A DNA stretch of 64,000 nucleotides from Octopus sinensis (Eukaryota). The position numbers and the translations under genes were made by a program. The notes beneath the pieces are model-generated. The model had not been told where the DNA came from, searched no databases, and was given only the letters and a program-made list of their open reading frames with translations. The DNA lies in the NCBI RefSeq assembly GCF_006345805.1, contig NC_043025.1:620001-684000 (forward strand), written 5' to 3'. The stretch's first letter is position 1; each line of letters opens with the position of its first letter. This document shows positions 6,638 to 64,000 of the stretch, piece after piece.

Positions 6638-7273
6638 GTCACGATGGGCTTCTTTCAGTTTCCATCTACAAAGTCCACTTATGAAGAGTCCAATGGCCAC
6701 AGGAGAAGACATGTGCTTAGTGTGCCACGCAGTGGAACTGAACCCGAAACCAGATTTGGAAGCAAGCGTCTTACCAGACAGCCGCGCCTAAACATGCCCC
6801 CCTACACAGATTGAATCCAAGGAAACACGCAAAAAGATGAGACACTCTCCAAGCCGTTCACTTTATAATTTGCTAAAACTATTTACATGGTGTCCGTTAG
6901 TGAGTAATGCTGTGTTTTGTTTTATTTCTCCTACACATTGATTTCAAATTTTGGCACAACACCAGCAATTTCGGGAGAGGGAGTAAGTTGATTACATCGA
7001 CCCCAGTACTTAACTGATATTGATTTCATCGACCCCGAAAGGATAAAAGGCAAAGACAACCTCGGCGGAATATTTCTACTTAATATTTAATATCATTACG
7101 TTCATGCATTTTTGAAATTGGGTGTTAAAACAGAAATTCTTCTATTTGGAGATGGTCGTATGTTGCCAATGAAACACGCGCAATATATATTTGATCTTCA
7201 CTTCATTATTATTATTGTTGTTGTTGTTATTGGTACGCCGGGCTAAACGCTTAGAAGTATTTCGTTTCCCCGA

Positions 7274-7505
7274 AGGCGGCGAGCTGGCAGAAATGTTAGC
7301 ACGTCGGGCGAAATGCTTTGCAGTATTTCGTCTGAGGTTACGTTCTGAGTTCAAATTCCGCCGAGGTCGACATTGCCTTTCATCCTTTCGGGGACGATTA
7401 AATAAGTACCAGTTACGCACTGGTGTCGATATAATCGACTTATTCCGTTTGTCTGTCCATGTTTGTCCTCTCTGTGTTTAGCCCTTTGTGGGCAGTAAAG
7501 AAATA
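7274..7505 (+). mobile_element. SINE family B variant with Tx1-like 3' tail, inserted in another family B SINE (about 7234..7650)
   Basis: Head GGCGGCGAGCTGGCAGAA, B-box-like GAGTTCAAATTCC, tail TGTGTTTAGCCCTTTGTGGGCAGTAAAGAAATA; imperfect TSD 7256..7270 / 7506..7520. Confidence 0.8.
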
Positions 7506-7649
7506 GGTATTTCGTCTCTCACTACGTTCTGAGTTCAAATTCCGTCGAGGTCGACTTCGCCTTTATTCTTTTCGGGGACGATAAATTAAGTACCAGTTAC
7601 ACACTGGGACCGATGTAATGGACTTGTCCTTAGGCTTCCAGTAGAAAGG

Positions 7650-8394
<745 letters not shown>

Positions 8395-8395
<1 letters not shown>

Positions 8396-10834
8396 TATGT
8401 TTGACTTTTGCTTTATATTTGTACAAGTTGGCTCCAAGTATCACCCAGAGACCTCAAGAGACAACAGGGTTGGAAGTTCATGTTGTTGTTATGCCTAGTG
8501 TGCCATATATTTGGGGGGTGGGGATGTACTAATGAATGTCTAAAAAAAAAGTTTTTTTTTTTTTTTTTTAAACCGAAAATTATGTTTGTTTTAAACCTTG
8601 AGATTACATAGAGAGTATTTTGCGTAGGATATGAGCAGTTCCCATGAGCACTATCTTTTGAACTTCTGCCATTTTTGGGTTTCCTGGTATCTGAGTTAGG
8701 TAGCTATCAGCCCCTTTTGCTATCATTCCCAGGGCACCTATGACAACAGGTATTGTTTTAGTCTTCAGCTTCCACATTTTGCTGATTTCTATTTCAAGAT
8801 CTTTATATTTGCTCAGTTTTGGTAGGTCTTGACAGATACGTTTATATCGATTGGGACAGTCATATCAATGAGGAGGCATGTTCTTTGTTTGAAGTTTTTC
8901 AATATGATGTCTGGCCTATTTGCATCTATCTTCCTGTCAGTTTGAATGGTGAAGTTCCAGAAGAGTGAGATGTGGTCATTTTCAAGCACTGGGGGTGGTT
9001 TGTGTTCCCACCAGTTTTTTTCATGGGGCAAATCCAGGTTTTTACAGATTACCCAGTGAATATATTGTGCAGCTCTATCGTGCCTGTTGAGATACTCTGT
9101 AGGCGCTAGAAGACTGCACTTGGAGACCACATGGTCAATGGTTTCATTTTGTTGCTTGCATACACGACACGTTGGACTGCTTCTGATCTTTAATATGTTG
9201 GCCTGGTAGTTTCTTGTTGGTAGGCATTGATCTTGAGCTGCTATGATAAACCCCTCTGTTTCAGATTTTAAGCCAGAGGCCATTAGCCATTGATGGGTCA
9301 GGGCTTTGTCGATATCTGCATTATTCGCTCTCTTTGGGTATTTGCCATAGAGAGGTTTTTCTTGCCATTTATTATTCAGAATATCTAAGGCCGCAGTTTT
9401 GGCACGGGTTTTCATGCGCCTAGCTTTTTCTGTGCTTGTTTCTTGTATATCTATCTCTAATTCCGAAATTGGTTGTATTCGGAATTCACTTAGATATTCC
9501 TTTGTCTGTTTTGTGACTGAGTATGATGCTTTCTTGTTTTCATGTTTTGAGACAAGTTTTAGCATCCAGTCCTCAGAGTTTTTCAGGTAGGTGTCTAGGC
9601 CAATTGTAGCAATCTTCATTGTTATTGCCAGTTGCAAAAGACCACGGCCTCCCTCTTTTCTTGGCAGATAGAGTCGTTCTGTAGCTGCCTTAGGGTGGTG
9701 CATTCTATGCATTGTCAACAGTTTCCTTATTTTTCTGTCGAGCTGACATATTTCAGTAATTGACCAGTTAACAATATTGAAACTGTAAGTCACGACTGGT
9801 ATAGCTAATGCATTGATTGCTTCGATCCTGTTTCTTGCATTCAGCTCTGTCTTGAGTATTGCTCTCACTCTTCGATAGCATTCTCTCCTGATCCTTTCCT
9901 TCATCTCTGAATGCCTTATTCCGTTCCCTTCAATTATCCCTAGGTACTTGTAGCTCTCCGCTGGGTCTAGTTCTTTTATGACATTCTGTTGGTCAAGGTT
10001 AACGTTAGATGTTTCTGTCATTTTTCCTTTGATAAAGGTAGCCTTTGCACATTTATCGAGGCCGAATTGCATTCTGATGTCGTCACTGAATTGTTTGACT
10101 ATCGCTAGTAAGCCCTTGAGTTGTTGATCATTTTTTGCAAAAAGCTTTAAATCATCCATGTAAACGAGATGATTTATATTTTTATCAAACATTTTATACC
10201 CGTACTGCGCATCATTGAGCAGCTTTGAGAGAGGTATTAAGGATAAACAAAAGAGGAGTGGTGACAGTGAGTCACCCTGGAAAATGCCACACGAAATTTT
10301 TACATCACCAGCATTTAGGGATTCACTGTCACTGTTCAGAGTTAGTGTGGTTCCCCATGATCTCATACTTACAGTCAAGAAGTTTCGCAGAGTTGGTGCT
10401 ATCTTATACATTTCAAGGCATTTCCTAATCCAGCTATGTGGTAGGCTATCAAAAGCCTTTTTATAGTCTATCCAGGCTATTGATAAGTTTTTGTGTCGTT
10501 TGTGACAATCTTCTAAGATCATCTTATTGATGAGTAGTTGGTCTTTACAGCCGTAGGATCCACGTTTACATCCTTTCTGTTCATTAGGGAATATGCTGCT
10601 GTCTGTTAAAAAACTATAGGTATATTCCGTCAGGACAGATGTTAGTGTTTTGTACATAGTTGTTAAGCAGGTTATGGGTCTATAGTTTTTTGGTTCATTT
10701 GTTTCTGCACTTTTTGGAAGCAGGAATGTTAACCCATTAACTAGCCAAGGAGGCATCCTACTAGGGTGTTGCAAAACATCATTGTACAGTTCTGTTAGCA
10801 GTTCATGGCTCTCTGGGAAGGCATTCAGCCAGAA

Positions 10835-10835
<1 letters not shown>
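8395..10835 (-). mobile_element. R4/Dong-clade LINE lineage B, 5'-truncated, 2.4 kb
   Basis: RT plus RLE coding region with a 3' UTR ending AAGCAAAAGTCAAACATAG(AAT)n; (TAA)n on both sides. Confidence 0.95.
8604..10835 (-). pseudogene. Non-LTR reverse transcriptase / CCHC / restriction-like endonuclease ORF with one frameshift at about 8817
   Basis: WIDYKKAFDS, GIFQGDSLSPLLF, YMDDLKLF, YKYLG, CRVC..HVVSKC, RHD, RPDIIL..LID; a T4 run versus T5 in the 11203 copy shifts the frame, and the C-terminus continues to the stop at 8604..8606. The poly-N start of the listed ORF is microsatellite. Confidence 0.93.
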
Positions 10836-10900
<65 letters not shown>

Positions 10901-10910
10901 TATCATTATT

Positions 10911-11127
10911 AAGGCGGAGAGCTGGCAGAATCGTTAGCACGCCGGGAAAAATGCTTGGTGGTATTTCATCCATCATTAGTTTCTGAGTTCAAATACCCCT
11001 GAGGTCAACTTAGAATTTCATCACTTAAAGGTCTATAAATTAAATACCAGTTCTGTACTAGGGGTATGTAACCGACTAACTCACCCCCCAAAATATTTCA
11101 GGCCTTGTGCCTATAGTAGGAACGACT
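10911..11127 (+). mobile_element. SINE family B, ordinary form ending in an (ATT)n tail
   Basis: Head GGCGGAGAGCTGGCAGAATCGTTAGCACGCCGGG, GAGTTCAAAT, end GGCCTTGTGCCTATAGTAG; related fragments at 6935..7070 (-) and 19085..19300 (+). Confidence 0.8.
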
Positions 11128-11160
11128 GTTATTATTGTTATTATTATTATTGTGATTGTG

Positions 11161-27033: not shown

Positions 27034-28372
27034 ATTTGCCAATAGGGCCGGCATATGGGAGAAGATACAGTAGAAAATGCGGTGAGAGCTGGCAGAATCT
27101 TCAGTACGTCGGGCGAAATGCTTAGCGGTATTTCTTCTGCCGTTACCTTCTGAGTTCAAATTCCCCCGAGGTCGACTTTGCCTTTCATACTTTCGGGGTC
27201 GATTAAAGAAGTACCAGTTACGCACTGTGATCGATATAATCGAATTAATCCGTTTGTCTGTCCTTGTTTGGCCTCTCTGTGTTTAGCCCCTTGTGGGTAG
27301 TAAAGAAACAGGACACAGTAGACATGAACACTGGAGATTTAACGCAGAGACAACGAGTACACAGTTAAAAGAATAACAATGATATCCGACCAAAGAATAT
27401 AACAATGAAAGTTGGTAATAGGTGCAGGTAATCCCCTGGAGTTGGCTCAGGTACCCCCACCCCAATCCTGAACCACTCGACGCTTCGAGGGCATCTGGGA
27501 AGAGCACTCTCCTCCCTCTCAAATTCACTAGCCCAAAGGCGTGTTATTAGAGTAGGTCCACTCACACGTACCCTTTTCTCTGTTCATCCACCTTTTGGCA
27601 AATGTACTGGGAGGCAGCACTTCACTCTGCACCCTCATCTTCCTTTCCAAAGGAAATTTGAAAAAGGTGACCCGTGATTGGCCGTAGAGAAAAGTCTCTG
27701 TCTTTAGTCCGTTTAACCTGGTCCACAATACAGCCTCTTTCGCTACTGCTATTAGACTGATGGAAAGCGGCTGATCGATCTTCACTACGGACTCGGCCGA
27801 TAGATAGAACCACCCTACACGTGATAACAGCTGTTCAACATAACTCCACATGTCAGTAATGCAAGGACACTGGACGAGTGCGTGCAGAATGATTTCATAG
27901 CTCTGCGCACATGTCGGGTAGGTCGGTCAGACAGCACTTCCGTGCTTGTAGAGTTTATCTCGAACCGGCAGTGCCCCCCGACAGCACTGCAAAACAAGGG
28001 ACTTCTAGAAGTTATCCATCATCCCCGTCTTGAAAGTCCTTCTCAACAGACTGATTAGTTCAATTTTGTCAACGCCTAACGTCTCTCCAAGTGCTTCATC
28101 GCACTTTCCCTCCACTAACCCTCCATAGAACTTCAGAGTGGATTTTCCACTGATCGCATTGCCCACCTGGTAGAGGACAGTGAGTGCCTAGCAACATTCC
28201 AGATGCCAGTAACTCTTCCTCGGTCTCTTCTTTACCCAGGACTGCAGCTTACTCAAGGAAATGAGTTGTGGAAAAGCCTGTTTGACAAACGATGACCACA
28301 CCTGTTCACCATTTAGGCAGAATGTTTGGAGATGCCGCAGCCCCAGTTCATGTCTTCCAAAGCATGCCCAGT
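27034..28372 (-). mobile_element. Tx1/L1-clade LINE lineage 2, decayed 3' part (paralogs 38132..39495, 45115..45675, 56581..57553, 59735..61055)
   Basis: MWSYVEQLLSRVG..LSAESVVKI..AKEAVLWTRL..GQSLVNFFKF..KRW is homologous to ORF 63173..63673; 3' end GCCCTATTGGCAAA(TAA)n. Confidence 0.8.
27079..27310 (+). mobile_element. SINE family B with Tx1-like tail inserted in the lineage 2 3' UTR (paralogs 38176..38407, 44962..45114, 56625..56856, 59779..60012)
   Basis: Same head and tail as the 7274 copy; TSD GATACAGTAGA is exact at 38161..38171 / 38409..38419. Confidence 0.85.
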
Positions 28373-34090: not shown

Positions 34091-34469
34091 AGAGAGAGAG
34101 AGCTCATCTGTACCCAAACCTTCAATAGTTTGATGTCCTATTTTCATAGGAGTGAGGGGAAGAGGGAGATGAAAACATGCAGGGGCCTCTAAACTGTTTA
34201 ACGTATTTGTATCTGAGAAAGTCTCCAGTATTCTTGATGCCTTCTGCAAAAAGTGAAAGATAAAAAAGGAAATTGAAAAAAAACTAATTGTCTTCCAGTA
34301 TCTGTGTGTGTGTCTGTGTGCGTGTGTGTGTGTGTGTTTGTGTGTGATGCAATGAGATACATAACCATGCCTATGAGTTTCTTTAATATAAAACTGAAGT
34401 GAATATTAATGATAATATTAAATGATAATATTAAATGACATAATTTCATTGTGAAGGAGGTTTAATCTT

Positions 34470-35540
34470 TAATGTTTTCAGTCTCGTCCACCACACTACT
34501 TGTTTAGCCACCGGGCAGAAGAAACTGCTTTTCCTTCCCGGCCTAAAGAAGGTGGCGGGGCGATCTTTACAATGAACTCGGCACGTAAACTGGATGGACG
34601 AGTGCATGCAGGACTATTTCATCGCCCTGCGCACACCCCCGACATATCCGTCCGACAACACTTTCGTAACTGTAGAGCTTGTCTTGAATGGGCAGAGCTC
34701 CCCGGTAGCACTGCCAGGCCAGGGATTTCTGGAAGTTAAGGACCAGTTAGTTGATTCCCTCCACCAACGCCCAGAATTTACCCCGATTTCGTCGTTGTTC
34801 TTTCCCCTCTACTAATCCCCTATAGAAATCCAAGGTGGAACTATCAACGCCCGCGTTGCCCGACAGGCAGAAAGCTGTGAGAGCTTGCCGACACTCCAGG
34901 TGCCAAGCGCCCTTTCTTGGCCAACGCTTGACTCAGTACTGTAGCTTCTTCAGTGAGACGAGCCGCAGAATGTCCCGTTTGACAAACAGTAAATCCCCTA
35001 TTCTCGCCGCTAAAGAAACGAAGGAGCTGTCGCAGTCTCAGCGCATGTCTGCGAATCATTACCAACGGCATGTCCAGTACTCCACTGAGAGGTTGTTGAC
35101 AGAAGATGGACCGTCTGATGAGCGGAACACATACCTTCTTTAGAAAGCGGAATAACAAACGCTCTAACTTTATCGGGCATGGGACTACATTCAGGCAGTC
35201 ATAGATGACGGAAGCGATGTACGCATTCGCCACCTCGACTCGACCCTTCACGAACAGCTTCCTCTCTGCCAATTTCTGGGTGAGATCGACTATCCTGTTC
35301 GTCACCTCCCACCCGTTGTTGTCCACCTCGAGGTCTACAGCAGACCAGACCCCAAGCAGTTTAACCTGTCTTTCCGTCTAGCGCCCTACAAACTGTCGGT
35401 TGGTATGGTTCTGCCTCTCCAACTGCCGATTTGCAGGCCCACCGACTTCTCTTGGATAAGCTTTGCCCCTATCAACGCTTCGTGGACAGTATTATGATGA
35501 CACAGTCCGTGTTAGCTGATACGAACATTCCACATCCTAA
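34470..35540 (-). mobile_element. Tx1/L1-clade LINE lineage 3, decayed internal fragment (paralogs 25300..25835, 43890..44220, 51470..52535, 58110..59185)
   Basis: ORF 34844..35326 WEVTNRIVDLTQKLAERKLFVKGRVEVANAYIAS..LERLLFRFL is homologous to ORF 42087..42674. Confidence 0.8.
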
Positions 35541-38133: not shown

Positions 38134-40344
38134 TGCCAATAGGGTCGGCATATGGGAGAAGATACAGTAGAAAATGCGGTGAGAGCTGGCAGAATCTTCA
38201 GTACGTCGAGCGAAATGCTTAGCGGTATTTCTTCTGCCGTTTCCTTCTGAGTTCAAATTCCCTCGAGGTCGACTTTGCCTTTCATCCTTTCGGGGTTGAT
38301 TAAAGAAGTACCAGTTACGCACTGTGGTCGATATAATCGACTTACTCCGTTTGTCTGTCCTTGTTTGTCCTCTCTGTGTTTAGCCCCTTGTGGGTAGTAA
38401 AGAAACAGGATACAGTAGACATGGACAGTGGGGATTTCACGCAGAGACAACGAGTACACAGTTAAAAGATTAACAATGATATCTGACAAAAGAATATAAC
38501 AATGAAATTTTGTAATAGGTGCAGTTAATCCCCTGGAGTTGGCTCAGGTACCCACACCCCAATCCTGAACCACTCGACGCTTCGAGAGCATCTGGGAAGG
38601 GCACTCTCCTCCCTTTCAAATTCACGAGCCCACAGGTACGTTACTAGAGTAGGTCCTCTCACACGTACCATTTTCTCTGTTCATCCACCTTTTGGCAAAT
38701 GTACTGGGAGGCAGCACTTCACTCTGCACCCTCATCTTCCTTTCCAAAGGAAATTAAAAAAATATGACCCGTGATTGGCCGTAGAGAAAACTCTCTGCCT
38801 TTAGTCAGTTTAACCTGGTCCGCAATACAGCCACTTTCGCTACTGCTATTAGACAGAAGTTAATTGCCTGACCTTCCAGACTGATGGAAAGTGGCTGATC
38901 GATCTTCACTACGGACTCGGCCGATAGATAGAAACTGCCTACACTTAATAACAGCTTTTCAACATAACTCCACAAGTCAGTAATGCAAGGACACTGACGA
39001 GTGCGTGCAGAACGCTTTCATCGCTCTGCGCATATCTCGGGTAGGTCGGTCAGACAGCAATTCCGTGCTTGTAGAGTTTATCTCGATCCGGCAGTGCCCC
39101 CCGATAGCACTGCAAAGCAAGGGACTTCTAGAAGTTATCCATTATCCCCGTCTTGAAAGTCCTCCTCAACAGACTGGTTAGTTCAATTTTGTCAACGCCT
39201 AGCGTCTCTCCAAGTGCTTCATCGCACATTCCCTCCACTAACCCTCCATAGAACTTCAGAGTGGATTTTCCACTGATCGCATTGCCCACCTGGTAGAGGA
39301 CAGTGAGTGCCTAGCAACATTCCAGATGCCAGTAACCCTTCCTCGGTCTCTTCTTGACCCACGACTGCAGCTTACTCAAGGAGATGAGATGTGGAAAAGC
39401 CTGTTTGACAAACGATGACCACACCTGTTCACCGTTTACGCAGAATATTTGGAGGTGCCGCAGCCCCAGTTCATGTCTTCCACAGCATGCCCAGTGTTCC
39501 GGAAATCGGAAAGCGAAAGCACAAAAACGAAAATTTGAAAAGGGAAAAGTAAAAACAGCATTTAAGAGTTCTCCTTTTCAGACCTTGAATTATAAGGCTA
39601 ATAAAATATCAAAAATCTAATCAAGAATAGACGGAATTTTTCAGATCTTCAAAATATATTTATACTTGACAACGACTGAAAATTCCAGACCTAGAGTCCA
39701 ATAGAGAATTAAGCATCTTAGATCTGAACAGGATATGCACTCTTTCAGCTAAACAATGTTTATATTTATTCGATCCTTTCACATAAGTTATGGATTCACA
39801 ATTACTTCCCATCCAGTCACATGTGGTGTTTCGTTTTCTTCCAAACTTAGCCACTTTTGTAGCTTTTCTTTTGGCCTATATCGGAAGGGGATTATGTGAT
39901 TGGCATAACGACTTTAAAATTCACCTTTAAATAAACAAAAGAATAAAAGAATAAAAGATTATGTGTGTGTGTGTGTACATGCATACAAAAATACACCCAC
40001 ATACGCACGGATATGTACATAAGCGCGCACACACACACATTTATGCGTATGGACTATTGTTTCGGTAAGTTGTGTCCACGAGAAAGACACTTCCAGTGCT
40101 CTCATCTGAAAAGTACCAGCATTAACCAGGGGTTAACATTGCGACAGACTGGTATCCGGTGTGTTGTATCCTTGTGTGTTGAAATACGTTCGATACCGAG
40201 ATATACTGGGGGCCTAATGAGCCTGTAGATCAGGCAGAGAATTTAGCTTAGAAAATAGTTTAATGTAGACATTTAGGCATGCGCAGTGAAGTGTTTCTGT
40301 AACGTTTATGGAGGAAAAGTCGATATGAATATGACAAAAAAAGA

Positions 40345-41047: not shown

Positions 41048-42407
41048 ATAGATAGATAGATAATGATAGAATATAAAGAGAATAATAGATAGATATATAA
41101 TATTAGAGATAGATAGATAGATTGATTGATAGATAGATAATTAGATACATAGATAAGATAATAGGATAGATAAGATAGATGGACATGATAGATAGATAGA
41201 TAGAATATATATAGATAGATATGTTTCTTTATTAGCCACCAGGGCTGCACACAGATAGAACAAATTACAAGGTAGAGCTTTTCTTTGGGGGTAAAAAAAG
41301 TGGGGTTGGGTTTCGATCAAAAGGGATCGTAAAAGGAAAGAAAGAGGACAAAAAAGGGAGGATTTTTTTAAAAAAGGGGAAGAGGGGAAAAAATAAAAGG
41401 AAAGGGAGAGAAAAAAAGTTGATCAATAGGGATCGTAATCACAGAAATGTCAATATGAAGTGTAAAGAAAAGCCTACGGAAAAGACCACGGTAACCTCGG
41501 TCAATGAAGTCACATGTTATATTTCTTTCTTTTATTTTTTTTTTGCAAATAAGCAACTCTCTGTATTAATTTTTACGGTTCATAGAATCATAGTCAAGGT
41601 GGCTTCGTCATTCATACGTGCCATCCTTGCTACATTCACCCATCTTTTTTTAAAACATTCGCTAGACAAAATTTGCCTCTCTACTCTCACTTTCCTCTTC
41701 ATGTGATACTTGAAGAAGTTGATGAGAGATTGACCAGAGAGGAAAGTGTTTGTCTCCAATCCTTTCGGGCGCGTCCACCAGATACATTCTTTCGCCATAG
41801 CCACAAGTATGATAAAAATAGCTCTTCCTTCCCGTTTGAAGGAAGGAGGCGTGACGATATTAACGATAGACTCGGCTGATAAACCGACACGTCCCACACG
41901 TGACAGCAGTCGTTCGACATAAGCCCACAGGTCGGAAATTGCTGGACACTGAACGATTGCGTGCAGAGCGGTTTCGTCGCTCTGCCCGCATCTCGGGCAG
42001 GTCGGCCCCGTGTTTCTCGAGCCATGCCTATAGAGCTTATCCCGAACGGGTAGCGCTTCTCGGTAGCACCGCCAGGCCAGGGATCTCTAGAAGTTGTCCA
42101 TAGGTCCCGGGCCGAAAGTCGTTTGAAACAGGCGGGTCAGGTATTCCTCGTCGACGCCCAGGTTTGCCACGAGATCGTCGTCGTACCTCCCCTCCACTAA
42201 TCCCCTATAGAATTCTTTGGTTGTGTTGAAGTCACTCAAGGTCGACCTGGGACGGCAGAGTTGCTTGAGAGCAACGCGACACTCGCGGTGCCATTCGCCC
42301 TTCCTCGGCCTCTTTTTGCCCCACGACTGTTGTTCGGTCATGGAGACGAGTTGCGGGAATGCGTGCCTCACAAACGGTGACCACACCTGTTCACCGTCGT
42401 CTACATA
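40345..42407. repeat. Segmental duplication, paralogous to 61838..64000
   Basis: Colinear unique flank, (GATA)n and Tx1 copy, including a shared in-frame stop. Confidence 0.9.
40900..41221. repeat. Imperfect (GATA)n microsatellite; also at 42715..42840 and 62420..62814
   Basis: Direct reading. Confidence 0.95.
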
Positions 42408-42715
42408 GTGCTGGAGATGTCGCAGTCTCAGCGCGTGTCTGCGCATCATCAACCACGGCATGCCCAGCCCTTCTTTTAACGGGTGTTGGCAGCAAATGGA
42501 TCGCCTGACCATCGGGACGCATCCTTTCCACAAGAAGCGGAAGAGGATGCGTTCTAGTTTGGTGATGGTAGGGTCGGGACAAGGTACGACGGTCAGCGGT
42601 AGTAGATGATGGACGCGATGTAGGCGTTCGCCACCTCCGCCCGACCTTTTAGGGACACTTTCCTCTCGGCCCATTGCTGGGCGAGAGTGACCACCCTACT
42701 CGTTATCTCGTTCCA
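41222..42715 (-). mobile_element. Tx1/L1-clade LINE lineage 1, 5'-truncated, flanked by (GATA)n
   Basis: RT C-terminal ORF pieces (FRFLWKG..GLGMP), zinc finger CPRC..H..C, 3' UTR ending GGCTAATAAAGAAACA(TATC)n; 5' junction also runs into (TATC)n. Confidence 0.88.
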
Positions 42716-42748
42716 GATAGATAGATAGATATGTAGATATAATAGTAT

Positions 42749-42797
<49 letters not shown>

Positions 42798-43099
42798 GAT
42801 ATAGATAGAAGATCGATTGATTGATCGATAGATATAGATCATTTTCTATTGTTGCATCCTTTAAAATTTCAGGAACACAAACCACAGAGCTTCAAATCCC
42901 GTTCGCTGTCTTCGATGAGATCCGACAATTCTAATGTATGGCGTAGAATTTAAACCATAGCTGTAAACAATTCCTTACGTTTGTCATCCATTGGGCTGCG
43001 CCTATGCTGGGGCACTGCCTTAAAGTGTTTTAGTCGCACAAATCGACCCCAGTATTTGTTGTTAAGCCTGCTGCGTATTCTCGCGATCCCTTCCGCTGA

Positions 43100-44711: not shown

Positions 44712-44960
44712 TTAGAGAGCAGTGCATGCCATCAAAGTGACACTAGGGTAAAATATACGAAGCCCAGTTACCCATCATGACTACCCGTCTGATAAGGGTA
44801 CACCAGGCACATGCATCACAACCATAAGTGCGAAACATGATGATCTCATATCAAGATAAAAAGCACATGACCTTGTATGTGGGGCCCAGTTAGAATTTTC
44901 TTCTGATCGAGTAACAGATCCTGCTCAAAAGGTCCCTGAGTAAGGGTTGTTTAAGGATTT
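44711..44960. mobile_element. Unclassified interspersed-repeat fragment abutting (TTA)n, possibly a retroelement 3' end
   Basis: Replaces the SINE 5' part found in the four paralogous segments; family not identified. Confidence 0.35.
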
Positions 44961-47274
44961 CAATTTCCCCCGAGGTCGACTTTGCCTTTCATCCTTTCGG
45001 GGTCGATTAAAGAAGTACCAGTTACGCACTGTGATCGATATAATCGGCTTAATCCGTTTGTCTGTCCTTGTTTGTCTTTTCTGTGTTTAGCCCCTTGTGG
45101 GTAGTAAAGAAACAGGATACAGTAGACATGGACAGTGGAGATTTAACGCTGAGACAACGAGTACACAGTTAAAAGAATAACAATGATATCCGACAAAAGA
45201 ATATAACAATGAAAGTTCGTAATAGGTGCAGGTAATCTCCTGGAGTTGGCTCAGGTACCCCCACCCCAATCCTGAACAACTCGACGCTTCGAGAGCATCT
45301 GGGAAGAACACTCTCCTTTCTTTCAAATTCACTAGCTCAAAGGCGTGTTATTAGAGTAAGTCCACTCACACGTACCATTTTCGCTATTCATCCACCTTTT
45401 GGCAAATGTACTGGGAGGCAGCACTTCACTCTGCACCCTCATCTTCCTTTCCAAAGAAAATTTGAAAAAGTTGACGAGTGATTGGCCGTAGAGAAAAGTC
45501 TCTGCCTTTAGTCCTTTTAACCTGGTCCACAACACAGCCTCTTTCGCTACTTGCTATTAGACATAAGTAAATTGCCTGACCTTCCGGACTGATTGAAAGT
45601 GGATGATCGATCTTCACTACGGACTCGGCCGATAGATAGAACCACCGTACACGTGATAACAGCTGTTCAACATAAGAAAAATCTAATCAAGAATAGACGG
45701 AATTTTTCAGTTCTTCAAAATATATTTATACTTGACAACGACTGAAAATTCCAGACCTAGAGTCCAATAGAGGATTAAGCATCTTAGATCTGAACAGGAT
45801 ATGCACTCTTTCAGCTAAACAATGTTTATATTTATTCGATCCATTCACATAAGTTATGGATTCTCAATTACTTCCCATCCAGTCACATGTGGTGTTTCGT
45901 TTTCTTCCAAACTTAGCCACTTTCGTAGCTTTACTTTTGGCCTATGTCGGAAGGGGATTATGTGATTGGCATAACGACTTTAAAATTCACCTTTAAATAA
46001 GCAAAAGAATAAAAGAATAAAAGATTGTGTGTGTGTGTGTGTACATGCATACAAAAATACACCCACATACGCACGGATATGTACATAAGCGCGCACACAC
46101 ACACTCATAGGCGTATGGATTATTGTTTCGGTAAGTTGTGTCCACGAGAAAGACACTTCCAGTGCTCTCATCTGAAAAGCACCAGCATTAACCAGGGGTT
46201 AACATTGCGACAGACTGGTATCCGGTGTGTTGTATCCTTGTGTGTTGAAATATATATACTGGGGGCCTAATGAGCCTGTAGATCAGGCAGAGAATTTAGC
46301 TTAGAAAATGCTTTAATATAGATATTTAGGCATGCGCAGTCAAGTGTTTGTGTAACGTTTATGGAGGAAAAGTCGATATGAATATGACAAAAAAAGAAAC
46401 ACCGTATTTTCCGGTGTGTAAGCCGCTATTTTTTACCTGGGAAATTTAGTGTGCCGCTTAGAGAAAGGTGCGCCTAATGTGTGTAACTTTTTTTATAGTT
46501 CCAGGAGGAAAATAATTTGTGTATGGAGATCGAATGATTCCACTGATTTTTTTGGAGGAAAGGTCGGTCGATGAAAGACTATTGCTACAGGACATTTGTG
46601 CCTGGAAGAAAACAAAGCACATTTGTTTTGTTTTAACTTCATGTTTTGATAATGTTTTTTTTTATCCAATAAAGAATTTAATATTGACGGAAGGTGTTTG
46701 TTGCTGATTATAGTAAGATAAAATAAAAAAAAATCAACAATACATCTCAAAGTTGAAGAATAAAACATTTTGAAAATACATACACATCAACAACAACAAA
46801 GCTAGCAGCGGTCACGTGGTTCCATAAGTCTTTATAAAACACAAGGGTGTATATTAATGGCACTGAGGATTTTCAATGTCGTTGCCGTGCTCATATGTAT
46901 TCCTTCACTAATCCCGAATCTAAACTATTTCAATCTTTAGCAACACACATATACAACCTCAATTCAAAACAATGCCCAACACGCTCTATCGTGGTCCATA
47001 GTATGTGAAGCTCCCCTCTACAACACAAATATAGGTAAATGTATGTTATGTATAAAAGGGTCATTAACTATTCTTCGCCTCCACAACCCCTCACTGTTAA
47101 ATTCTCTGACGTTATTTTTTATCGTAAATATAAATACTGCCCGACATTCATGCACTTCCCTAATTCCAAATAAATAAAGCTGTAACGTAAAACAAGTGTC
47201 AACCTGACAATCGACAAGTGAACACATTCCAAATAGCAAATGTGTGTGTGTGTCTATGTATACATATATGTATG

Positions 47275-53423: not shown

Positions 53424-54495
53424 CTACTTCAGAAGGAAGGAAAACTGATCCAGATAGCGGCAAAACACGAGCAAAACAAAAAACTGTTCTCAGTATTTAA
53501 GGAAGCTGACAAATACAAACAGGAAATCATACCACCTAATAAACATGAAGAAGAAGAAGATGAAGAAACAACAATAGCTATAAAACAAATGAAATCCAAA
53601 CTAAAAATAGAACAGCAACGAACCATGATAAAACGATGGCAAGAAAAGCCCCTTCATGGTAAATACTGGACTAAACTAAACGCAAAAATAGACAAGAAAA
53701 ATCCCAGCAATGGTTGAGAAGCTCAGGACTCAAAGCAGAAACAGAGGGATTTTTAATTGCAGCACAAGACCAAAGCCTCCCCACCAGAATTACCAAAAAC
53801 ATATAATGAAAAGAAATATTACAAGTAACTGCAGAATATGTGGAGATGGACAAGAAACAATAAATCATATTATCTCTAGCTGTCCAGTCCTGGCTAAGAA
53901 GGAATATATTCACAGACATGACAGAGTTGGAACCTACATACATTGGAAGCTATGCCAACATTATGGAATAACAACAGAAAAAAGATGGTATAGGCACACA
54001 CCAGAAAAGGTCACAGAAAACAAGAAAGCAACCATACTCTGGGATATGCCGATACACACAGATAGAGAAATTAAGGCCAACAGACCAGATATAGTTGTCA
54101 GAGATCATGAAGAATAAAATGCTTTCTGATTGATGTATCAATAGCGTCAGATGACAACGTGTCTCTAAAAGAAATGGAGAAACTTTCAAAATACAAAGAC
54201 CTGGAAATAGAGGTAACTAGAATGTGGAATCTGAAAACAGAAACAATTCCTATCATAGTAGGTGCATTAGGCATGATACAAAAATATTCAGACAAATACA
54301 TAACAAAAACACCAGGACTTACAAACACATATACCATACAGAAAATTGCACTACTAGGCACTGCCCACATCCTACGCAGAACACTTTCCATACAATAACC
54401 ATCAGAGCATCACAACAAATCACAGCACATACCCAAGGCACACAGAGCTGCGCTCGGTAGTGAAGTGAAAGCACGATATAAAAATAAAACTACTG

Positions 54496-56572: not shown

Positions 56573-59545
56573 CATTATTATTTGCCAATAGGGCAGTCAT
56601 ATGGGAGAAGATACAGTAGAAAATGCGGTGAGAGCTGGCAGAATCTTCAGGACGTCGGGCGAAATGCTTAGCGGTATTTCTTCTGCCGTTACCTTCTGAG
56701 TTCAAATTCCTCCGAGGTCGACTTTGCCTTTCATCCTTTCGGGGTCGATTAAAGAAGTACTAGTTACGCACTGTGGTCGATATAATCAACTTAATCCGTT
56801 TGTCTGTCCTTGTTTGTCCTCTCTGTGTTTACCCCCTTGTGGGTAGTAAAGAAACAGGATACAGTAGACATGGACAGTGGAGATTTAACGCTGAGACAAC
56901 GAGTACACAGTTAAAAGAATAACAATGATATCCGACAAAAGAATATAACAATGAAAGTTCGTAATAGGTGCAGGTAATCCCCTGGAGTTGGATCAGGTAC
57001 CCACACCCCAATCCTGAACCACTCGACGCTTCGAGGGCATCTGGGAAGAGCACTCTCCTCCCTCTCAAATTCATTAGCCCACAGGTGCGTTATTAGAGTA
57101 GGTCCACTCACACGTACCATTTTCGCTATTCATCCACCTTTTGGCAAACGTACTGGGAGGCGGCACTTCACTCTGCACCCTCATCTTCCTTTCCAAAGGA
57201 AATTTGAGAAAGTTGACGAGTGATTGGCCGTAGAGAAAAGTCTCTGCCTTTAGTCCTTTTAACCTGATCCACAATACAGCCTCTTTCGCTACTGTTATAA
57301 GAATCGAAGTAAATTGTGTCACCTTCCGGAATGATGGAAAGCGGCTTAGCGATCTTCACTACGGACTCGGCCGATAGATAGAACAACCCTACACGTGATA
57401 ACAGATGTTCAACATAACTCCACATGTCAGTAATGCAAGGACACTGGACGAGTGCGTGCAGAACGCTTTCATCGCTCTGCGCACATCTCGGGTAGGTCGG
57501 TCAGACAGCACTTCCGTGCTTGTAGAGTTTATCTCGATCCGGCAGTGCCCCCCGATGCTGGTGTGTTTACGTCCCTGTAACTTAGCGTTTCGGCAAAAGA
57601 GACCGACAGAATAAGTACTAGGCTTACAAAGAATAAGTCCTGGGGTCGATTTACTCGACTAGAGGTCGTGCTCCAGCACGGCCACATTCAAATCACAGAA
57701 ACAAGTAAAAGAGTAAGAAGAGAGAGAGAGAGAGAGCTCATCTGTACCCAAACATTCAATAGTTTGATGTCCTATTTTCATAGGAGTGAGGGGAAGAGGG
57801 AGAGGAAGACATGCAGGGGTCTCTAAACTGTTTAATGTATTTGTATCTGAGAAAGTCTCCAGTATTCTTGATGCCTTCTGCAAAAAGTGAAAGATAAAAA
57901 AGGAAATTGAAAAAAAAACTAATTGTCTTCCAGTATCTGTGTGTGTGTCTGTGTGCGTGTGTGTGTGTGTCTGTGTGTGTTTGTGTGTGATGCAATGAGA
58001 TACATAACCATGCCTATAAGTTTCTTTAATATAAAACTGAAGTGAATATTAATGATAATATTAAATGATAATTTTAAATGACATAATTTTTCTGTGAAGA
58101 AGGTTTAGTCGTCAATGTTTTCAGTCTCGTCCACCACTCTACCTCTTTAGCCACCGGGCAGAAGAAACTGCTTTTCATTCCCGGCCAAAAGAAGGTGGCG
58201 GGGCGATCTTTACAATGAACTCGGCTCGTAAACTGGACTGATGAGTGCATGTAGGACTATTTCCTCGGCCTGCACACACCCCCGACATATCCGTCCGACA
58301 ACACTTTCGTATCTGTAGAGCTTGTCTTGAATCGGCAGAGCTTCCAGGTAGCACTGCCAGGACAGGGATTCCTGGAAGTTAAAGTCCAGTTAGTTGATTC
58401 CCTCCACCTCCGCCCAGAATTTACCCCGATTTTGTCGTTGTTCTTTCCCCTCTACTAATCCCCTATAGAAATCCATGTTGGAACTATCAACGCCCGCGTT
58501 GCCGACTGGCAGAAAGCTGTGAAAGCTTGCCGACATTCCAGGTGCCAAGCGCCCTTTCTTGGCCAACGCTTGACTCAGTACTGTAGCTTCATCAGTGAGA
58601 CGAGCTGCGGAAAGTGCCCGCTTCACAAACAGTCAATCCCCTATTCTCACCGCTAAAGAAACGAAGGAGCTGTCGCAGTCTCAGCGTATGTCTGCGAATC
58701 ATTAGCAACGACATGTCCAGTACTCTACTGAGAGGTTGTTGACAGCAGATGGACCGTCTGATGCGCGGAACACATCCCTTCTTTAGAAAGCGGTATAACA
58801 AACGCTCTAACTTTATCGGGCATGGGACTACATTCAGAAAGTCATAGATGACAGAAGGGATGTTCGCATTCGCCACTTCGACTCGACCCTTCACGAACAG
58901 CTTCCTCTCTGCCAACTTCTGGGTAAGATCGACTATCCTGTTCGTCACCTCCCAGACGTTGTTGTCCACCCCGAGGTCAAGAGCAAACCAGAATCCAAGC
59001 AGTTTAACCTGTCATTCCGTCTAGCGCCCTACAAACTGTCGGTTGGTATGGGTCTGCCTCTCCAACTGCCGATTTGCAGGCCCACCGACTTCTCTTGGAT
59101 AAGCTTTGCTCCTATCACCGCTTCGTGGCCTGTATTATGATGCCGTAGTCTGTGTTAGTTGATACGAACATTCCACATTCTAAGTCATATATATATATAT
59201 ATATAGCATCTGTATTTCTAATTATATAATTTCGAATTGAAAAGTTTCAATCAGCAGTTTATGACGATTGGCGGTGGAAGTGGAAGAGTTAAAATGAGAG
59301 AGTGGGGAGAGGGAGTGATAGAAGAGAGAGAGGGGAAAGAAGAGGAGGAGAGTTGATGTGTACAATTGTGAGTGTGTGTGTGTGTGTCTGTGTGTGTGTG
59401 TGTCTGTGTGCGTGATGCAATTAGATACACAACCCTGCCTAAACTTTTCTTTAATATGAAACTGGAGGGAATATCACATTAACGATTGCATTAAATGACA
59501 ATTTTACTGAGAAGTGAGTGAAAAGTTTAGCCTGAAAAAAATTCC

Positions 59546-59711: not shown

Positions 59712-61491
59712 TATTATTATTATTATTATTATTATTTGCCAATAGGGCCGGCATATGGGAGAAGATACAGTAGAAAATGCGGTGAGAGCTGGCAGAATCT
59801 TCAGTACGTCGGGCGAAATGCTTAGCGGTATTTCTTCTTCTGCCGTACCTTCTGAGTTCAAATTCCCCCGAGTTCGACTTTGCCTTTCATCCTTTCGGGG
59901 TCGATTAAAGAAGTACCAGTTACGCACTGTGATCGATATAATCGAATTAATCCGTTTGTCTGTCCTTGTTTGTCCTCTCTGTGTTTAGCCCCTTGTGGGT
60001 AGTAAAGAAACAGGACACAGTAGACATGGACAGTGGGGATTTAACACAGAGACAACGAGTACACAGTTAAAAGAATAACAATGATATCCGACAAAAGAAT
60101 ATAACAATGAAAGTTCGTAATAGGTGCAGGTAATCCCCTGGAGTTGGCTCAGGTACCCACACCCCAATCTTGAACCACTCGACGCTTCGAGAGCATCTGG
60201 GAAGAGCACTCTCCTCCCTTTAAAAATTCACTAGCACAAAGGCGTGTTATTAGAGTAGGTCCACTCACACGTACCATTTCACTCTGCACCCTCATCTTCC
60301 TTTCCAAAGGAAATTTGAAAAAGTTGACGAGTGATTGGCCGTAGAGAAAGTCTCTGCCTTTAGTCCTTTTAACCTGATCCACAATACAGCCTCTTTCGCT
60401 ACTGCTATTAGACATAAGTAAATTGCCTGACCTTCCGGACTAATGGAAAGCGGCTGAGCGATCTTCACTACGGACTCGGCCGATAGATAGAACCACCCTA
60501 CACGTGATAACAGCTGTTCAACATAACTCCACATGTCAGTAATGCAAGGACACTGGACGAGTGCGTGCAGAATGATTTCATAGCTCTGCGCACATGTCGG
60601 GTAGGTCGGTCAGACAGCACTTCCGTGCTTGTAGAGTTTATCTCGAACCGGCAGTGCCCCCCGATAACACTGCAAAACAAGAGACTTCTAGAAGTTATCC
60701 ATCATCCCCGTCTTGAAAGTCCTTCTCAACAGACTGATTAGTTCAATTTTGTCAACGCCTAACGTCTCTCCAAGTGCTTCATCGCACTATCCCTCCACTA
60801 ACCCTCCATAGAACTTCAGAGTGGATTTTCCACTGATCGCATTGCCCACCTGGTAGAGGACAGTGAGTGCCTAGCAACATTCCAGATGCCAGTAACTCTT
60901 CCTCGGTCTCTTCTTGACCCAGGACTGCAGCTTACTCAAGGAGATGAGTTGTGGAAAAGCCTGTTTGACAAACGATGACCACACCTGTTCACCATTTAGG
61001 CAGAATGTTTGGAGATGCCGCAGCCCCAGTTCATGTCTTCCACAGCATGCCCAGTGTTCCGGAAATCGGAAAGCGAAAGCACAAAAACGAAAATGGGAAA
61101 AGGGAAAAGTAAAAACAGCATTTAAGTGTTCTCCTTGTTAGACCTTGAATTATAAGGCTAATAAAATATCAAAAATCTAATCAAGAATAGACGGAATTTT
61201 CCAGATCTTCAAAATATATTTATACTTGACAACGACTGAAAATTCCCGACCTAGAGTCCAATAGAGAATTAAGCATCTTAGATCTGAACAGGATATGCAC
61301 TCTTTCAGCTAAATAATGTTTATATTTATTCGATCCATTCACATAAGTTATGGATTCTCAATTACTTCCCATCCAGTCATATGTGGTGTTTCGTTTTCTT
61401 CCAAACTTAGCCAGTTTCGTAGCTTTACTTTTGTCCTATGTCGGAAGGGGATTATGTGATTGGCATAACGACTTTGAAATTCACCTGAAGT

Positions 61492-62692: not shown

Positions 62693-62814
62693 GATATATA
62701 GACATAGATAGATAGATAGATTGATTGATAGATAGATAGATAAATAGATACATAGATAGATAGATAGATGGATAGATAGAGATAGATGGACATAGATAGA
62801 TAGATAGATAGATA

Positions 62815-64000
62815 TGTTTCTTTATTAGCCACACAGGGCTGCACACAGACAGAACAAATTACAAGGTAGAGCTTTTCTTTTGGGGGTAAAAAAAGGGGGT
62901 TGGGTTTCGATCAAAAGGGATCGTAAAAGGAAAGAAAGAGGACAAAAAAGGGGGGATTTTTTATAAAAAAGGGGGGAGAGGGAAAAAATAAAAGGAAAGG
63001 GGAGAGGAAAAAAAGTTGATCAATAGGGATCGTAATCACAGAAATGTCAATATGAAGTGTAAAGAAAAGCCTACGGAAAAGACCACGGTAACCTCGGTCA
63101 ATGACGTCACATGTTATATTTTTTCTTTTATTTTTTTTTGCAAATAAGCAACTCTGTATTAATTTTTACGGTTCATAGAATCATAGTCAAGGTGGCTTCG
63201 TCATTCATACGTGCCATCCTTGCTACATTCACCCATCTTTTTTTAAAACATTCGCTAGACAAAATTTGCCTCTCTACTCTCACTTTCCTCTTCATGTGAT
63301 ACTTGAAGAAGTTGATGAGAGATTGACCAGAGAGGAAAGTGTTTGTCTCCAATCCTTTCGGGCGCGTCCACCAGATACATTCTTTCGCCATAGCCACAAG
63401 TATGTTAAAAATAGCTCTTCCTTCCCGTTTGAAGGAAGGAGGCGTGACGATATTAACGATAGACTCGGCTGATAAACCGACACGTCCCACACGTGACAGC
63501 AGTCGTTCGACATAAGCCCACAGGTCGGAAATTGCTGGACACTGAACGATTGCGTGCAGAGCGGTTTCGTCGCTCTGCCCGCATCTCGGGCAAGTCGGCC
63601 CCGTGTTTCTCGAGCCATGCCTATAGAGCTTATCCCGAACGGGTAGCGCTTCTCGGTAGCACCGCCAGACCATTGATCTCTAGAAGTTGTCCATAGGTCC
63701 CGGGCCGAAAGTCGTTTGAAACAGGCGGGTCAGGTATTCCTCGTCGATGCCCAGGTTTGCCACGAGATCGTCGTCGTACCTCCCCTCCACTAATCCCCTA
63801 TAGAATTCTTTGGTTGTGTTGAAGTCACTCAAGGTCGACCTGGGACGGCAGAATTGCTTGAGAGCAACGCGACACTCGCGGTGCCATTCGCCCTTCCTCG
63901 GCCTCTTTTTGATCCACGACTGTTGTTCGGTCATGGAGACCTGTTGCGGGAATGCGTGCCTCACAAACGGTGACCACACCTGTTCACCGTCGTCTACATA
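62815..64000 (-). mobile_element. Tx1/L1-clade LINE lineage 1 (duplicate of the 41222 copy; runs off the window)
   Basis: ORF 63173..63673 WRCYREALPVRDKL..CPRCGQSDETALHAIVQC is a zf-RVT-like domain; 3' end in (TATC)n. Confidence 0.88.

What the first reader, a model, noticed from the sequence alone, without database searches (positions are those of the whole stretch)
27255..27310. SINE variant whose 3' tail matches the Tx1 LINE 3' end, with a conserved stem-loop: candidate Tx1-mobilised SINE
Seen: the SINE tail TTTGTCCTCTCTGTGTTTAGCCCCTTGTGGGTAGTAAAGAAACA (38364..38407) aligns by eye at 36/45 positions with the Tx1 lineage 1 terminus TTTGTTCTGTCTGTGTGCAGCCCTGTGTGGCTAATAAAAGAAACA (reverse complement of about 62815..62860), and both end at the same base. 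A hairpin is kept in shifted register: AGCC-CTGTGT-GGCT in Tx1-1, GCCC-TTTGT-GGGC in the 7274 SINE, GCC-CTATT-GGC in Tx1-2. Ordinary family B copies (10911) lack this tail and end in (ATT)n. Two independent insertions (7274; 27079 and its duplicates) each show a TSD. Established: SINEs borrow the 3' end of their partner LINE, and Tx1-partnered SINEs are uncommon. Inference: a tail swap created a SINE subfamily that uses Tx1 machinery.
Basis: partly seen in the sequence, partly recalled or inferred. Interest (0 to 1): 0.75.

Follow-up and report, generated by a model that had tools for sequence, protein, structure and literature searches.

The report
SINE tail shared with L1-like LINE
The last 44 bases of a very abundant short retroposon (SINE) match the 3' end of L1/Tx1-like LINE elements in the same genome, so the SINE is likely copied by that LINE group's enzymes: a familiar kind of partnership with an uncommon kind of partner.

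Summary
The SINE tail (38364-38407, and its copy at 27255-27310) aligns without gaps to the LINE terminus (reverse complement of 62815-62858) at 36 of 44 positions, and both end on the same base. TSDs, the (ATT)n-ended "family B" tail and the hairpins are all present.

- The tail is not a rare variant. It is on 34 of 55 SINE copies in a random 390-kb genome sample, and its exact 24-mer occurs over 100,000 times.
- The LINE has APE, RT and zf-RVT domains, and its best solved relative is human L1 ORF2p. It sits inside (TATC)n on both sides, which is Tx1-like behaviour. Its place in the Tx1 clade could not be tested.
- Most SINE copies do not share that (TATC)n target. They are dispersed with 9-21-bp TSDs. 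A small class ends ...AAACA|(TATC)n exactly as the LINE does.
- A second LINE lineage of the same clade matches the tail about as well.
- The terminal 4-bp stem with a CTTGT loop covaries between the two SINE tails, so "tail swap" is too strong.
- The copy at 27079 is a passenger in the 3' UTR of another LINE lineage.

Verdict: a real SINE-LINE tail homology and a new member of a known kind. The driving lineage is unresolved.

The parts
27075..27311 (+). SINE copy holding the finding (tail 27255-27310). It lies antisense in the 3' UTR of LINE lineage 2 and ends ...GTAGTAAAGAAACAG.
   Evidence: Boundaries are fixed by the TSD and by the empty paralogous site in L211.
27064..27074 (+). 5' target-site duplication GATACAGTAGA of that SINE.
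27312..27322 (+). 3' target-site duplication GACACAGTAGA, with one mismatch to the 5' copy.
27035..28370 (-). The C-terminal ORF2 domain is 54% identical to lineage 1. It ends ...GCCGGCCCTATTGGCAAA followed by (TAA)n and is interrupted by the SINE.
   Evidence: All 30 best genomic copies carry the same SINE.
38172..38408 (+). Duplicate of the 27075 SINE, carried with LINE lineage 2.
44956..45115 (+). Partial duplicate of the same SINE copy.
56621..56857 (+). Duplicate of the same SINE copy.
59775..60013 (+). Duplicate of the same SINE copy.
7274..7505 (+). Independent tail-A SINE copy (hairpin GCCC-TTTGT-GGGC, end ...AAAGAAATA). It is nested in another SINE at the GGTATTTCG site; the TSD GTATTTCGT lies at 7257-7265 and 7507-7515.
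62815..64000 (-). Its terminus is ...GCAGCCCTGTGTGGCTAATAAAGAAACA at 62815.
41222..42716 (-). Duplicate, 5'-truncated copy of LINE lineage 1 (from position 3616 of the 5145-bp copy in L067), flanked on both sides by (TATC)n.
62700..62814 (-). (TATC)n tract directly after the LINE lineage 1 terminus.
10914..11135 (+). SINE with the other tail (tail B), ...TTTCAGGCCTTGTGCCTATAGTAGGAA..., running into (ATT)n and with (ATT)n upstream as well.

Best explanation
The 3' tail of this SINE is homologous to the 3' end of a clade of L1/Tx1-like LINEs in the same genome, and the SINE is likely copied in trans by that clade's ORF2 protein, which would recognise the shared terminal stem-loop and the AAUAAAGAAA end.

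Shown:
- The sequence match ends on the same base.
- The body-tail junction is fixed.
- The 4-bp stem with a CTTGT loop covaries.
- Isolated copies have 9-21-bp TSDs, and some copies are 5'-truncated.
- A minority of SINE copies abut (TATC)n in the phase the LINE uses.

Inferred:
- Recognition of the stem-loop by the LINE protein.
- Which lineage (lineage 1, lineage 4a or another relative) drove the 100,000-copy expansion.
- That the last bases of the RNA, pairing with the nicked target, choose the insertion site. On this view the LINE ending in (UAUC)n lands in (TATC)n, and SINE subfamilies ending in ...AUAGGUA land at GGTA sites.
For: Match. 36 of 44 gapless, same last base. Local scores are 23-29 against a random 99th percentile of 13.

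The LINE. The near full-length copy in L067 is 5145 bp. It has an ORF1 with a C-X2-C-X4-H-X4-C knuckle, Exo_endo_phos (2.1e-8), RVT_1 (2.5e-31) and zf-RVT (1.9e-7). Its RT matches human L1 ORF2p at E 6.7e-33, and R2 only at 5e-17 or weaker.

LINE target.
- 32 of 32 3' ends examined are followed by (TATC)n.
- 11 distinct 5'-truncation points are directly preceded by (TATC)n. 4 are not, and 5 lie at locus edges.

SINE abundance.
- 34 of 55 sampled copies carry tail A.
- Exact 24-mer counts are 96,654 (...AAATA) and 4,920 (...AAACA).

Stem-loop. On 52 sequences, 86.7% of cells are paired, against 60.0% in shuffles (0 of 500 reach it). The covariation score is 0.63 against 0.22 (0 of 500). Slid controls give 23-51%. 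All 4 pairs change on both sides.

LINE-style insertion.
- 12 of 41 independent full-length copies have flanking direct repeats of 9 nt or more.
- All 9 exact '...AAACA+TATCTATC' SINE places have different flanks. 6 have (TATC/TGTC)n on both sides and 2 are 5'-truncated.
- Among 81 SINE places next to (TATC)3, 64 use the LINE's phase with no spacer (counted by hand).
- ...AAACA ends are 8.3-fold more often next to (TATC)3 than ...AAATA ends (p 4e-13).

Second lineage. Lineage 4a has an RT 45-67% identical to lineage 1. It ends ...TATGTAAGCCCTTGTGGCTAATAAAGAAATA and scores 24-26 against the SINE tails.

Other LINEs. Of 44 tail-like places in the window plus 390 kb, 42 are SINEs and 2 are the window's lineage 1 ends.
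Against: - Most SINE copies do not share the LINE's obligatory (TATC)n context. ...AAATA ends lie next to (TATC)3 in about 0.06% of copies. (TATC/GATA)n covers 0.33% of the random sample.
- SINE ends also abut the opposite orientation, (GATA)3, with 153 pattern hits. Orientation therefore does not single out the LINE for the bulk of copies.
- The stems are only 3-4 bp, and predicted stability is ordinary (z +0.47 to -0.97).
- The LINE lineage 1 stem is in a shifted register relative to the SINE.
- Much of the covariation count comes from one split, tail A versus tail B, so it reflects few independent events.
- The lineage 4a terminus is rare as an exact string: 2 genome matches for the 30-mer.
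- Tail B did not score above background against any LINE end tested (7-12).
- The direction of transfer (LINE to SINE or SINE to LINE) is not resolved.
- The survey of LINE families was small.
Confidence: 0.6

Rival explanations
1. One specific Tx1 lineage, the (TATC)n-embedded LINE at 62815, is the driver, and a tail swap created a new SINE subfamily from an (ATT)n-ended ancestor.
For: The best scores for the ...AAACA-ended SINE copies are to this lineage: 27-29 against 25-26 for lineage 4a. Twenty SINE places among the 100 rows listed (of 109) end ...AAACA|TATC with no spacer, exactly like the LINE. Nine such places were examined, and they include 5'-truncated copies and copies flanked on both sides by the microsatellite.
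Against: Only about 0.5% of ...AAACA copies and 0.06% of ...AAATA copies lie by (TATC)3. ...AAATA-ended subfamilies score slightly better against lineage 4a: 25 against 23. Tail A and tail B share the stem-loop module, so no wholesale swap is needed. Tail A is the majority form.
Confidence: 0.15
2. The resemblance is a relic or a capture in the other direction. The LINE lineages took their last 50 bases from a SINE, or both inherited an old module, and the present SINE expansion is driven by a different, unsampled LINE.
For: LINEs here do pick up SINEs. All 30 best copies of the lineage 2 3' UTR carry the same antisense SINE. Most SINE copies do not share the (TATC)n target of lineage 1. Only the window and 390 kb were screened for other LINE ends.
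Against: The module sits at the very 3' end, in sense orientation, in at least two LINE lineages with diverged ORF2. SINE copies with the LINE's junction and phase exist. No other LINE end matched.
Confidence: 0.2
3. Chance similarity of two T/G-rich, A-ended sequences.
For: Both tails are compositionally simple in part (TGTCTGTG, AAAGAAA).
Against: E 5.7e-5 in the window. Scores are 23-29 against a random 99th percentile of 13. The terminal base is the same. SINE copies carry the LINE's exact junction to (TATC)n.
Confidence: 0.02

Closest known systems
Stringent-type LINE/SINE pairs with a shared 3' stem-loop: eel UnaL2/UnaSINE1 and zebrafish ZfL2-1/ZfL2-2. The eel pair is as summarised in passages of PMC3747384. 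For PMC4176376 I saw the search-listing abstract and two passages.
   Same: The SINE tail copies the LINE 3' end. A short stem-loop lies a few bases from the terminus. Short non-poly(A) repeats follow the end. Stem sequences vary while pairing is kept.
   Different: Those LINEs belong to the L2 clade and their dependence on the stem-loop was shown by assay. Here the LINE is in the L1 group, the stem is only 3-4 bp, and nothing has been tested at the bench.
L1-clade SINE/LINE pairs with a common tail: the maize/sorghum monocot L1 lineage with a hairpin and compensatory changes, and Chlamydomonas SINEX-3_CR/L1-1_CR (passages of PMC3747384).
   Same: An L1-group LINE that appears to use specific 3'-end recognition, not poly(A) alone. 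The conserved 3' hairpin has compensatory mutations.
   Different: Those are plant or algal elements ending in poly(A). Here it is an animal genome, the LINE ends in or at microsatellites, and the SINE has more than 100,000 copies.
SINEU mobilised by Tx1-Mar in crocodilians (Kojima 2015, PMC4494074; abstract and passages read).
   Same: A proposed SINE partner of a target-specific Tx1-type LINE.
   Different: That case rests on a shared insertion target, and SINEU ends in poly(A). Here the argument rests on a shared tail, and the target is shared only by a small minority of SINE copies.
Microsatellite-specific Tx1-clade LINEs: Kibi (TC)n, Koshi (TTC)n and crocodilian families in (TTCC)n/(TTTC)n (as described in PMC4494074).
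   Same: LINE lineage 1 is flanked on both sides by one microsatellite, (TATC)n. Lineage 2 ends at (TAA)n.
   Different: Membership of the Tx1 clade was not tested by phylogeny, and the repeat units are different.

Membership tests
SINE (short, non-coding, LINE-dependent retroposon) | Short, high-copy, dispersed, non-coding element with a fixed structure | tested here: met
   The element is about 232 bp. The random 390-kb sample holds 55 copies with a 3' side. The tail 24-mer has 101,574 exact matches. The body-tail junction is fixed in 30 of 30 aligned copies.
SINE (short, non-coding, LINE-dependent retroposon) | Head derived from a Pol III gene (tRNA, 5S or 7SL) with an internal promoter | tested here: inconclusive
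   ARAGORN found no tRNA and Rfam found no tRNA match in 7200-7700. A B-box-like GAGTTCAAATTCC is visible by eye. The tRNA origin is recalled from the cephalopod SINE literature and was not shown here.
SINE (short, non-coding, LINE-dependent retroposon) | Target-site duplications and 5' truncation, as left by target-primed reverse transcription | tested here: met
   12 of 41 independent full-length copies have direct repeats of 9-21 nt. 5'-truncated copies are seen. An empty paralogous site was found for the 27075 copy.
Stringent-type SINE/LINE pair | SINE 3' tail similar to the 3' end of a LINE of the same genome, ending at the same point | tested here: met
   36 of 44 gapless with the same last base. 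The score to lineage 4a is comparable.
Stringent-type SINE/LINE pair | Conserved 3' stem-loop supported by compensatory changes | tested here: met
   86.7% paired against 60% shuffled (0 of 500). All 4 pairs change on both sides. Caveats: few independent events, LINE lineage 1 in a shifted register, and ordinary stability.
Stringent-type SINE/LINE pair | Retrotransposition of the SINE depends on the LINE protein and on the tail | not testable with these tools
   This needs a cell-based retrotransposition assay.
Tx1 clade of non-LTR retrotransposons | L1-group architecture: ORF1, then ORF2 with an APE endonuclease, RT and a C-terminal zinc-binding domain | tested here: met
   Pfam finds Exo_endo_phos, RVT_1 and zf-RVT. 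The best solved relative is human L1 ORF2p, E 6.7e-33.
Tx1 clade of non-LTR retrotransposons | RT-domain phylogeny places the element inside Tx1 and not in L1 proper | not testable with these tools
   No Tx1 reference sequence could be brought in. The 120 listed homologues carry no clade names, and the atlas gave only 'reverse transcriptase'. Published octopus repeat tables list L1-Tx1 and no plain L1 (passages of PMC13282606), but the species of this genome was not established.
Tx1 clade of non-LTR retrotransposons | Sequence-specific insertion, typical of many Tx1 families | tested here: met
   Lineage 1: 32 of 32 3' ends are followed by (TATC)n, and 11 distinct 5' junctions are preceded by it.

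The most novel reading that the evidence does not exclude
The dominant SINE of this 2.7-Gb genome, with over 100,000 tail copies, is driven by a clade of microsatellite-homing L1/Tx1-like LINEs through a shared terminal stem-loop. The insertion site is chosen mainly by pairing between the last few bases of the RNA and the nicked DNA, not by the endonuclease. That one rule would explain four things: the LINE landing in (TATC)n, SINE subfamilies at GGTA or (GATA)n sites in a fixed phase, self-insertion at the SINE's own GGTATTTCG site, and the resulting 184-bp head-to-tail arrays.
Probability: 0.3. Interest if true: 0.7.

Novelty: new member of a known kind. Interest (0 to 1): 0.48.

Why it matters
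SINE-LINE tail sharing is textbook, but partners in the L1/Tx1 group are few. The review passages I read name plant and algal L1 pairs (PMC3747384). SINEU/Tx1-Mar is the only Tx1 case my searches found.

Here the SINE is one of the largest repeat families of a big animal genome. Naming its likely driver clade gives a handle on how that genome was inflated. The contrast between a target-locked LINE and a dispersed SINE with the same tail offers a natural test of what sets insertion sites in target-primed reverse transcription: the endonuclease or the RNA 3' end.

Tried and rejected
- Naming the LINE clade. The homologue search and the protein atlas gave no clade names. Earlier scan notes gave nothing usable.
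- tRNA origin of the head. ARAGORN and Rfam found nothing.
- Orientation test. I expected SINE ends only next to (TATC)n, but (GATA)n is at least as common. So I dropped 'shared microsatellite target' as evidence for the bulk of copies.
- 'Lineage 4a matches better than lineage 1.' Scores are about equal, and the exact 30-mer occurs only twice. I dropped the word 'better'.
- Tail B and lineage 4b. Both have a CTTGT loop, an AAAAGAAT end and (ATT)n. Alignment scores are at background (7-12), so this stays a lead only.
- Thermodynamic support for the hairpin. Z-scores are ordinary, apart from one tail-B copy at -2.34.
- Automatic anchoring of the hairpin failed twice, picking the wrong CTTGT or the ATTAT of the microsatellite. 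It was replaced by MAFFT columns. 4 of the 55 copies had a gap in the hairpin and were dropped. One further copy, whose 29-nt slice is identical to another's, was not sent to the alignment. That left 50 SINE slices plus 2 LINE ends.
- The supplement of PMC13282606 was listed but not read. It may hold family-level repeat tables that bear on the classification.

Full report
**What is at the coordinates.** Positions 27255-27310 are the 3' tail of a 237-bp SINE copy (27075-27311, + strand). The window lies at G000:C29:620001-684000 in a 2.72-Gb genome. The window contains one other independent copy with this tail (7274-7505). Four further copies (38172-38408, 44956-45115 partial, 56621-56857, 59775-60013) are duplicates of the 27075 copy.

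**Check of the observation.**
- 38364-38407 against the reverse complement of 62815-62858 gives 36 matches in 44 positions, with no gap and the same last base. With one 3-nt gap the match extends about 5 nt further upstream (CCTTG).
- BLAST inside the window gave E 5.7e-5.
- Random 75-mers of the genome score 7.6 +/- 2.4, with a 99th percentile of 13. Five SINE tails score 23-29 against this LINE end.
- The two LINE ends in the window (41222 and 62815) are duplicates of each other.
- The three quoted hairpins are there.
- The 'family B' copy at 10914 has another tail that runs into (ATT)n.
- Both independent insertions have TSDs: GATACAGTAGA/GACACAGTAGA for 27075-27311, and GTATTTCGT for 7274-7505.
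- For the first copy I found a paralogous empty site...catgTCTACTGTATCgtctcc... in L211. This fixes its ends.

**The tail is the main tail, not a variant.** A search with the 78-nt tail gave 348 candidates, and all 40 full-length scored matches were 97-100% identical. I took 39 stretches of 10 kb at fixed coordinates on 20 contigs. They hold 55 SINE bodies with their 3' side. 34 carry this tail ('tail A') and 21 carry the other ('tail B'...CCCCAAAATTTCAGGCCTTGTGCCTAGAGTAGAAAAGAAT followed by (ATT)n). The query came from a tail-A copy, so detection leans that way. Exact counts of the 24-mer CCCYTTGTGGGYARTAAAGAAA+ATA/ACA are 96,654 and 4,920. The junction between body and tail is the same in 30 of 30 aligned tail-A copies.

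**The LINE.** A near full-length copy (L067, 5145 bp, with frameshifts) has the following parts:
- an ORF1 with a CCHC-type knuckle;
- an APE endonuclease (Exo_endo_phos, 2.1e-8);
- RVT_1 (2.5e-31);
- zf-RVT (1.9e-7).

Its RT finds human L1 ORF2p at 6.7e-33 and R2 proteins only at 5e-17 or weaker. It is therefore in the L1 group. I could not run the RT phylogeny that defines the Tx1 clade. No Tx1 reference could be brought in, and the 120 listed homologues carry no clade names.

Its behaviour is Tx1-like. All 32 3' ends examined read ...GGCTAATAAAGAAACA followed by (TATC)n. Eleven different 5'-truncation points are directly preceded by (TATC)n, four are not, and five lie at the edge of the fetched DNA. 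Kojima (PMC4494074, passages read) describes target-specific Tx1 families, including families that home to microsatellites. Passages of a repeat survey of Octopus vulgaris (PMC13282606) list L1-Tx1 but no plain L1 among recently active LINEs. I did not establish that this genome is an octopus.

**Other lineages of the same clade.** The window holds at least two more.
- Lineage 2 (27035-28370, minus strand) has a C-terminal domain 54% identical to lineage 1 and ends ...GCCGGCCCTATTGGCAAA followed by (TAA)n.
- Lineage 3 lies around 34467-35404.
- Elsewhere, lineage 4 (RT 45-67% identical to lineage 1; 3359 candidates) ends in two forms. The rare form 4a is ...TATGTAAGCCCTTGTGGCTAATAAAGAAATA. The common form 4b is ...GAGCCCTTGTGGCCAATAAAAGAAT followed by (TAT)n.
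- Form 4a scores 24-26 against the SINE tails, about the same as lineage 1. It is slightly higher for ...AAATA-ended subfamilies and slightly lower for ...AAACA-ended ones. Its exact 30-mer occurs only twice.
- Tail B did not score above background against any LINE end (7-12).

In the window plus the 390-kb sample there were 44 tail-like places at E up to 0.05. 42 were attached to SINE bodies and 2 were the window's lineage 1 ends. No other LINE end appeared.

**The stem-loop.** I cut 29-nt slices around the hairpin from the MAFFT columns of the 55 sampled tails. Four were dropped for a gap in the hairpin, and one whose slice duplicates another's was not sent, leaving 50 slices. I aligned them with the ends of lineages 1 and 2. 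For the 4-bp stem flanking the CTTGT loop:
- 86.7% of cells pair, against 60.0% in shuffles (0 of 500 reach it);
- the covariation score is 0.63 against 0.22 (0 of 500);
- slid partners give 23-51%;
- all four pairs change on both sides.

Tail A has GCCC/GGG(C/T). Tail B has (A/T/G)GGC/GCC(T/A), with TGCT/AGCA once. Lineage 4a has AGCC/GGCT with the same loop. Lineage 1 has AGCC/GGCT with loop CTGTGT, which is a shifted register.

There are three caveats. Most of the counted changes trace to the A/B split and a few further events. The stems are short. Predicted stability is ordinary, with z = +0.47 to -0.97 for the window's tails. Because tail B keeps the same module, 'tail swap' overstates the difference. 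In the alignment, A and B differ mainly by about 20 extra bases in A and by the stem changes.

**Does the SINE insert like the LINE?** Partly.
- Isolated full-length tail-A copies have direct repeats of 9-21 nt (12 of 41 independent copies). These often start with GGTA, GGAT or GATA.
- Nine places match SINE-tail+AAACA+TATCTATC exactly. They have unrelated flanks, six have (TATC/TGTC)n on both sides, and two are 5'-truncated.
- A looser pattern found 109 hits next to (TATC)3. In the 100 listed rows I counted 81 places by hand. 64 have no spacer and use the LINE's phase, against an expectation of one in four. 24 of the 81 end ...AAACA.
- Per copy...AAACA ends are 8.3 times more often next to (TATC)3 than ...AAATA ends (p 4e-13).

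Against this:
- 153 hits abut the opposite orientation, (GATA)3, also in fixed phases such as ...AAATAA|GATA.
- (TATC/GATA)n covers 0.33% of the random sample. ...AAATA ends lie by (TATC)3 in only about 0.06% of copies.

So the bulk of the family does not home to this microsatellite. Lineage 1 is not shown to be its driver.

**Best reading.** The SINE tail and the 3' ends of this L1/Tx1-like clade are homologous. The SINE is likely mobilised by the clade's ORF2 protein through the stem-loop and AAUAAAGAAA module, as in stringent-type pairs (passages of PMC3747384; abstract and two passages of PMC4176376). Which lineage drove the expansion is open.

The fixed junction phases, and the way TSDs begin with bases that match the subfamily's own last bases, suggest that pairing of the RNA 3' end with the nicked DNA helps to pick the site. 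This is inference. The reverse direction (a LINE borrowing a SINE end) cannot be excluded. Lineage 2 shows that LINEs here do carry SINEs: all 30 best copies of its 3' UTR hold the same antisense SINE, with several different downstream flanks.

**Novelty.** My four full-text searches found no report of a SINE sharing its 3' tail with a Tx1-type LINE, and none naming the LINE partner of octopus SINEs. SINEU/Tx1-Mar is argued from a shared target and has poly(A) tails (PMC4494074). A bivalve survey names four partner clades and does not contain the term Tx1 (PMC11481361, term search). Repbase and Dfam could not be consulted, so the pair may already be annotated there. I rate it a new member of a known kind.

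Noticed in passing
L027 (five units, 184-bp period), L003, L019, L106; window 7274-7640: Tail-A SINEs very often sit in head-to-tail arrays. The end ...AAAGAAATA is joined to the internal head site GGTATTTCGTCTGCC of the next unit. Some arrays have near-identical units, which points to local duplication. Others have diverged units, which points to separate events. One copy (L025) shows a 17-nt TSD, GGTATTTCGCCTGCCGC, that is, insertion into another SINE at that site. A second fixed junction joins the tail to GAA(A/T)CGTTAGC of the head. Template switching or repeated self-insertion could both produce this.
   Followed up: partly
window 27035-28370 (-) with the SINE at 27075-27311; loci L117-L146: A subfamily of LINE lineage 2 carries the SINE antisense in its 3' UTR. 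All 30 best genomic matches to that 3' UTR have the SINE at the same site (1253 candidates). They are followed by (TAA)n and then by at least four kinds of downstream sequence. A diverged relative with the empty site is in L211.
   Followed up: partly
window 41100-41221, 42717-42838, 62700-62814; loci L031-L068: LINE lineage 1 is embedded in (TATC)n on both sides, and several loci hold chains of 5'-truncated copies separated by (TATC)n. This looks like a microsatellite-homing L1-group LINE with a repeat unit not among those named in the papers I read.
   Followed up: yes
G000:C1:44750713-44751009 (listing); L015 about 1426-1576: There are tandem arrays made of the SINE tail alone. Eight exact tail matches lie 39 bp apart on C1, and units of about 54 bp lie in L015.
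   Followed up: no
window 8584-10933 (-), 7671-8313, 53967-56596: A different LINE kind has RVT_1 and a weak zf-RVT match, a C-terminal ...GALGMI...GTAHILR... motif, and only 22% identity to the lineage 1 RT. One copy ends in an A-run and another in (TAA)n. Parts of it form an inverted duplication (7751-8325 against 54540-53967, 96.5%). Its 3' ends do not resemble either SINE tail.
   Followed up: no
window 24500-64000: Much of the window is built from repeated blocks that are 88-97% identical at irregular spacing. They are made of fragments of LINE lineages 1-3 and microsatellites. The same blocks recur on many small unplaced contigs.
   Followed up: no
L177-L206: Most lineage 4 LINE copies end ...AGCCCTTGTGGCCAATAAAAGAAT followed by (TAT)n. 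The loop, the A-rich end and the microsatellite are the same as in SINE tail B, although the alignment score is at background. This is a lead to the partner of tail B.
   Followed up: partly
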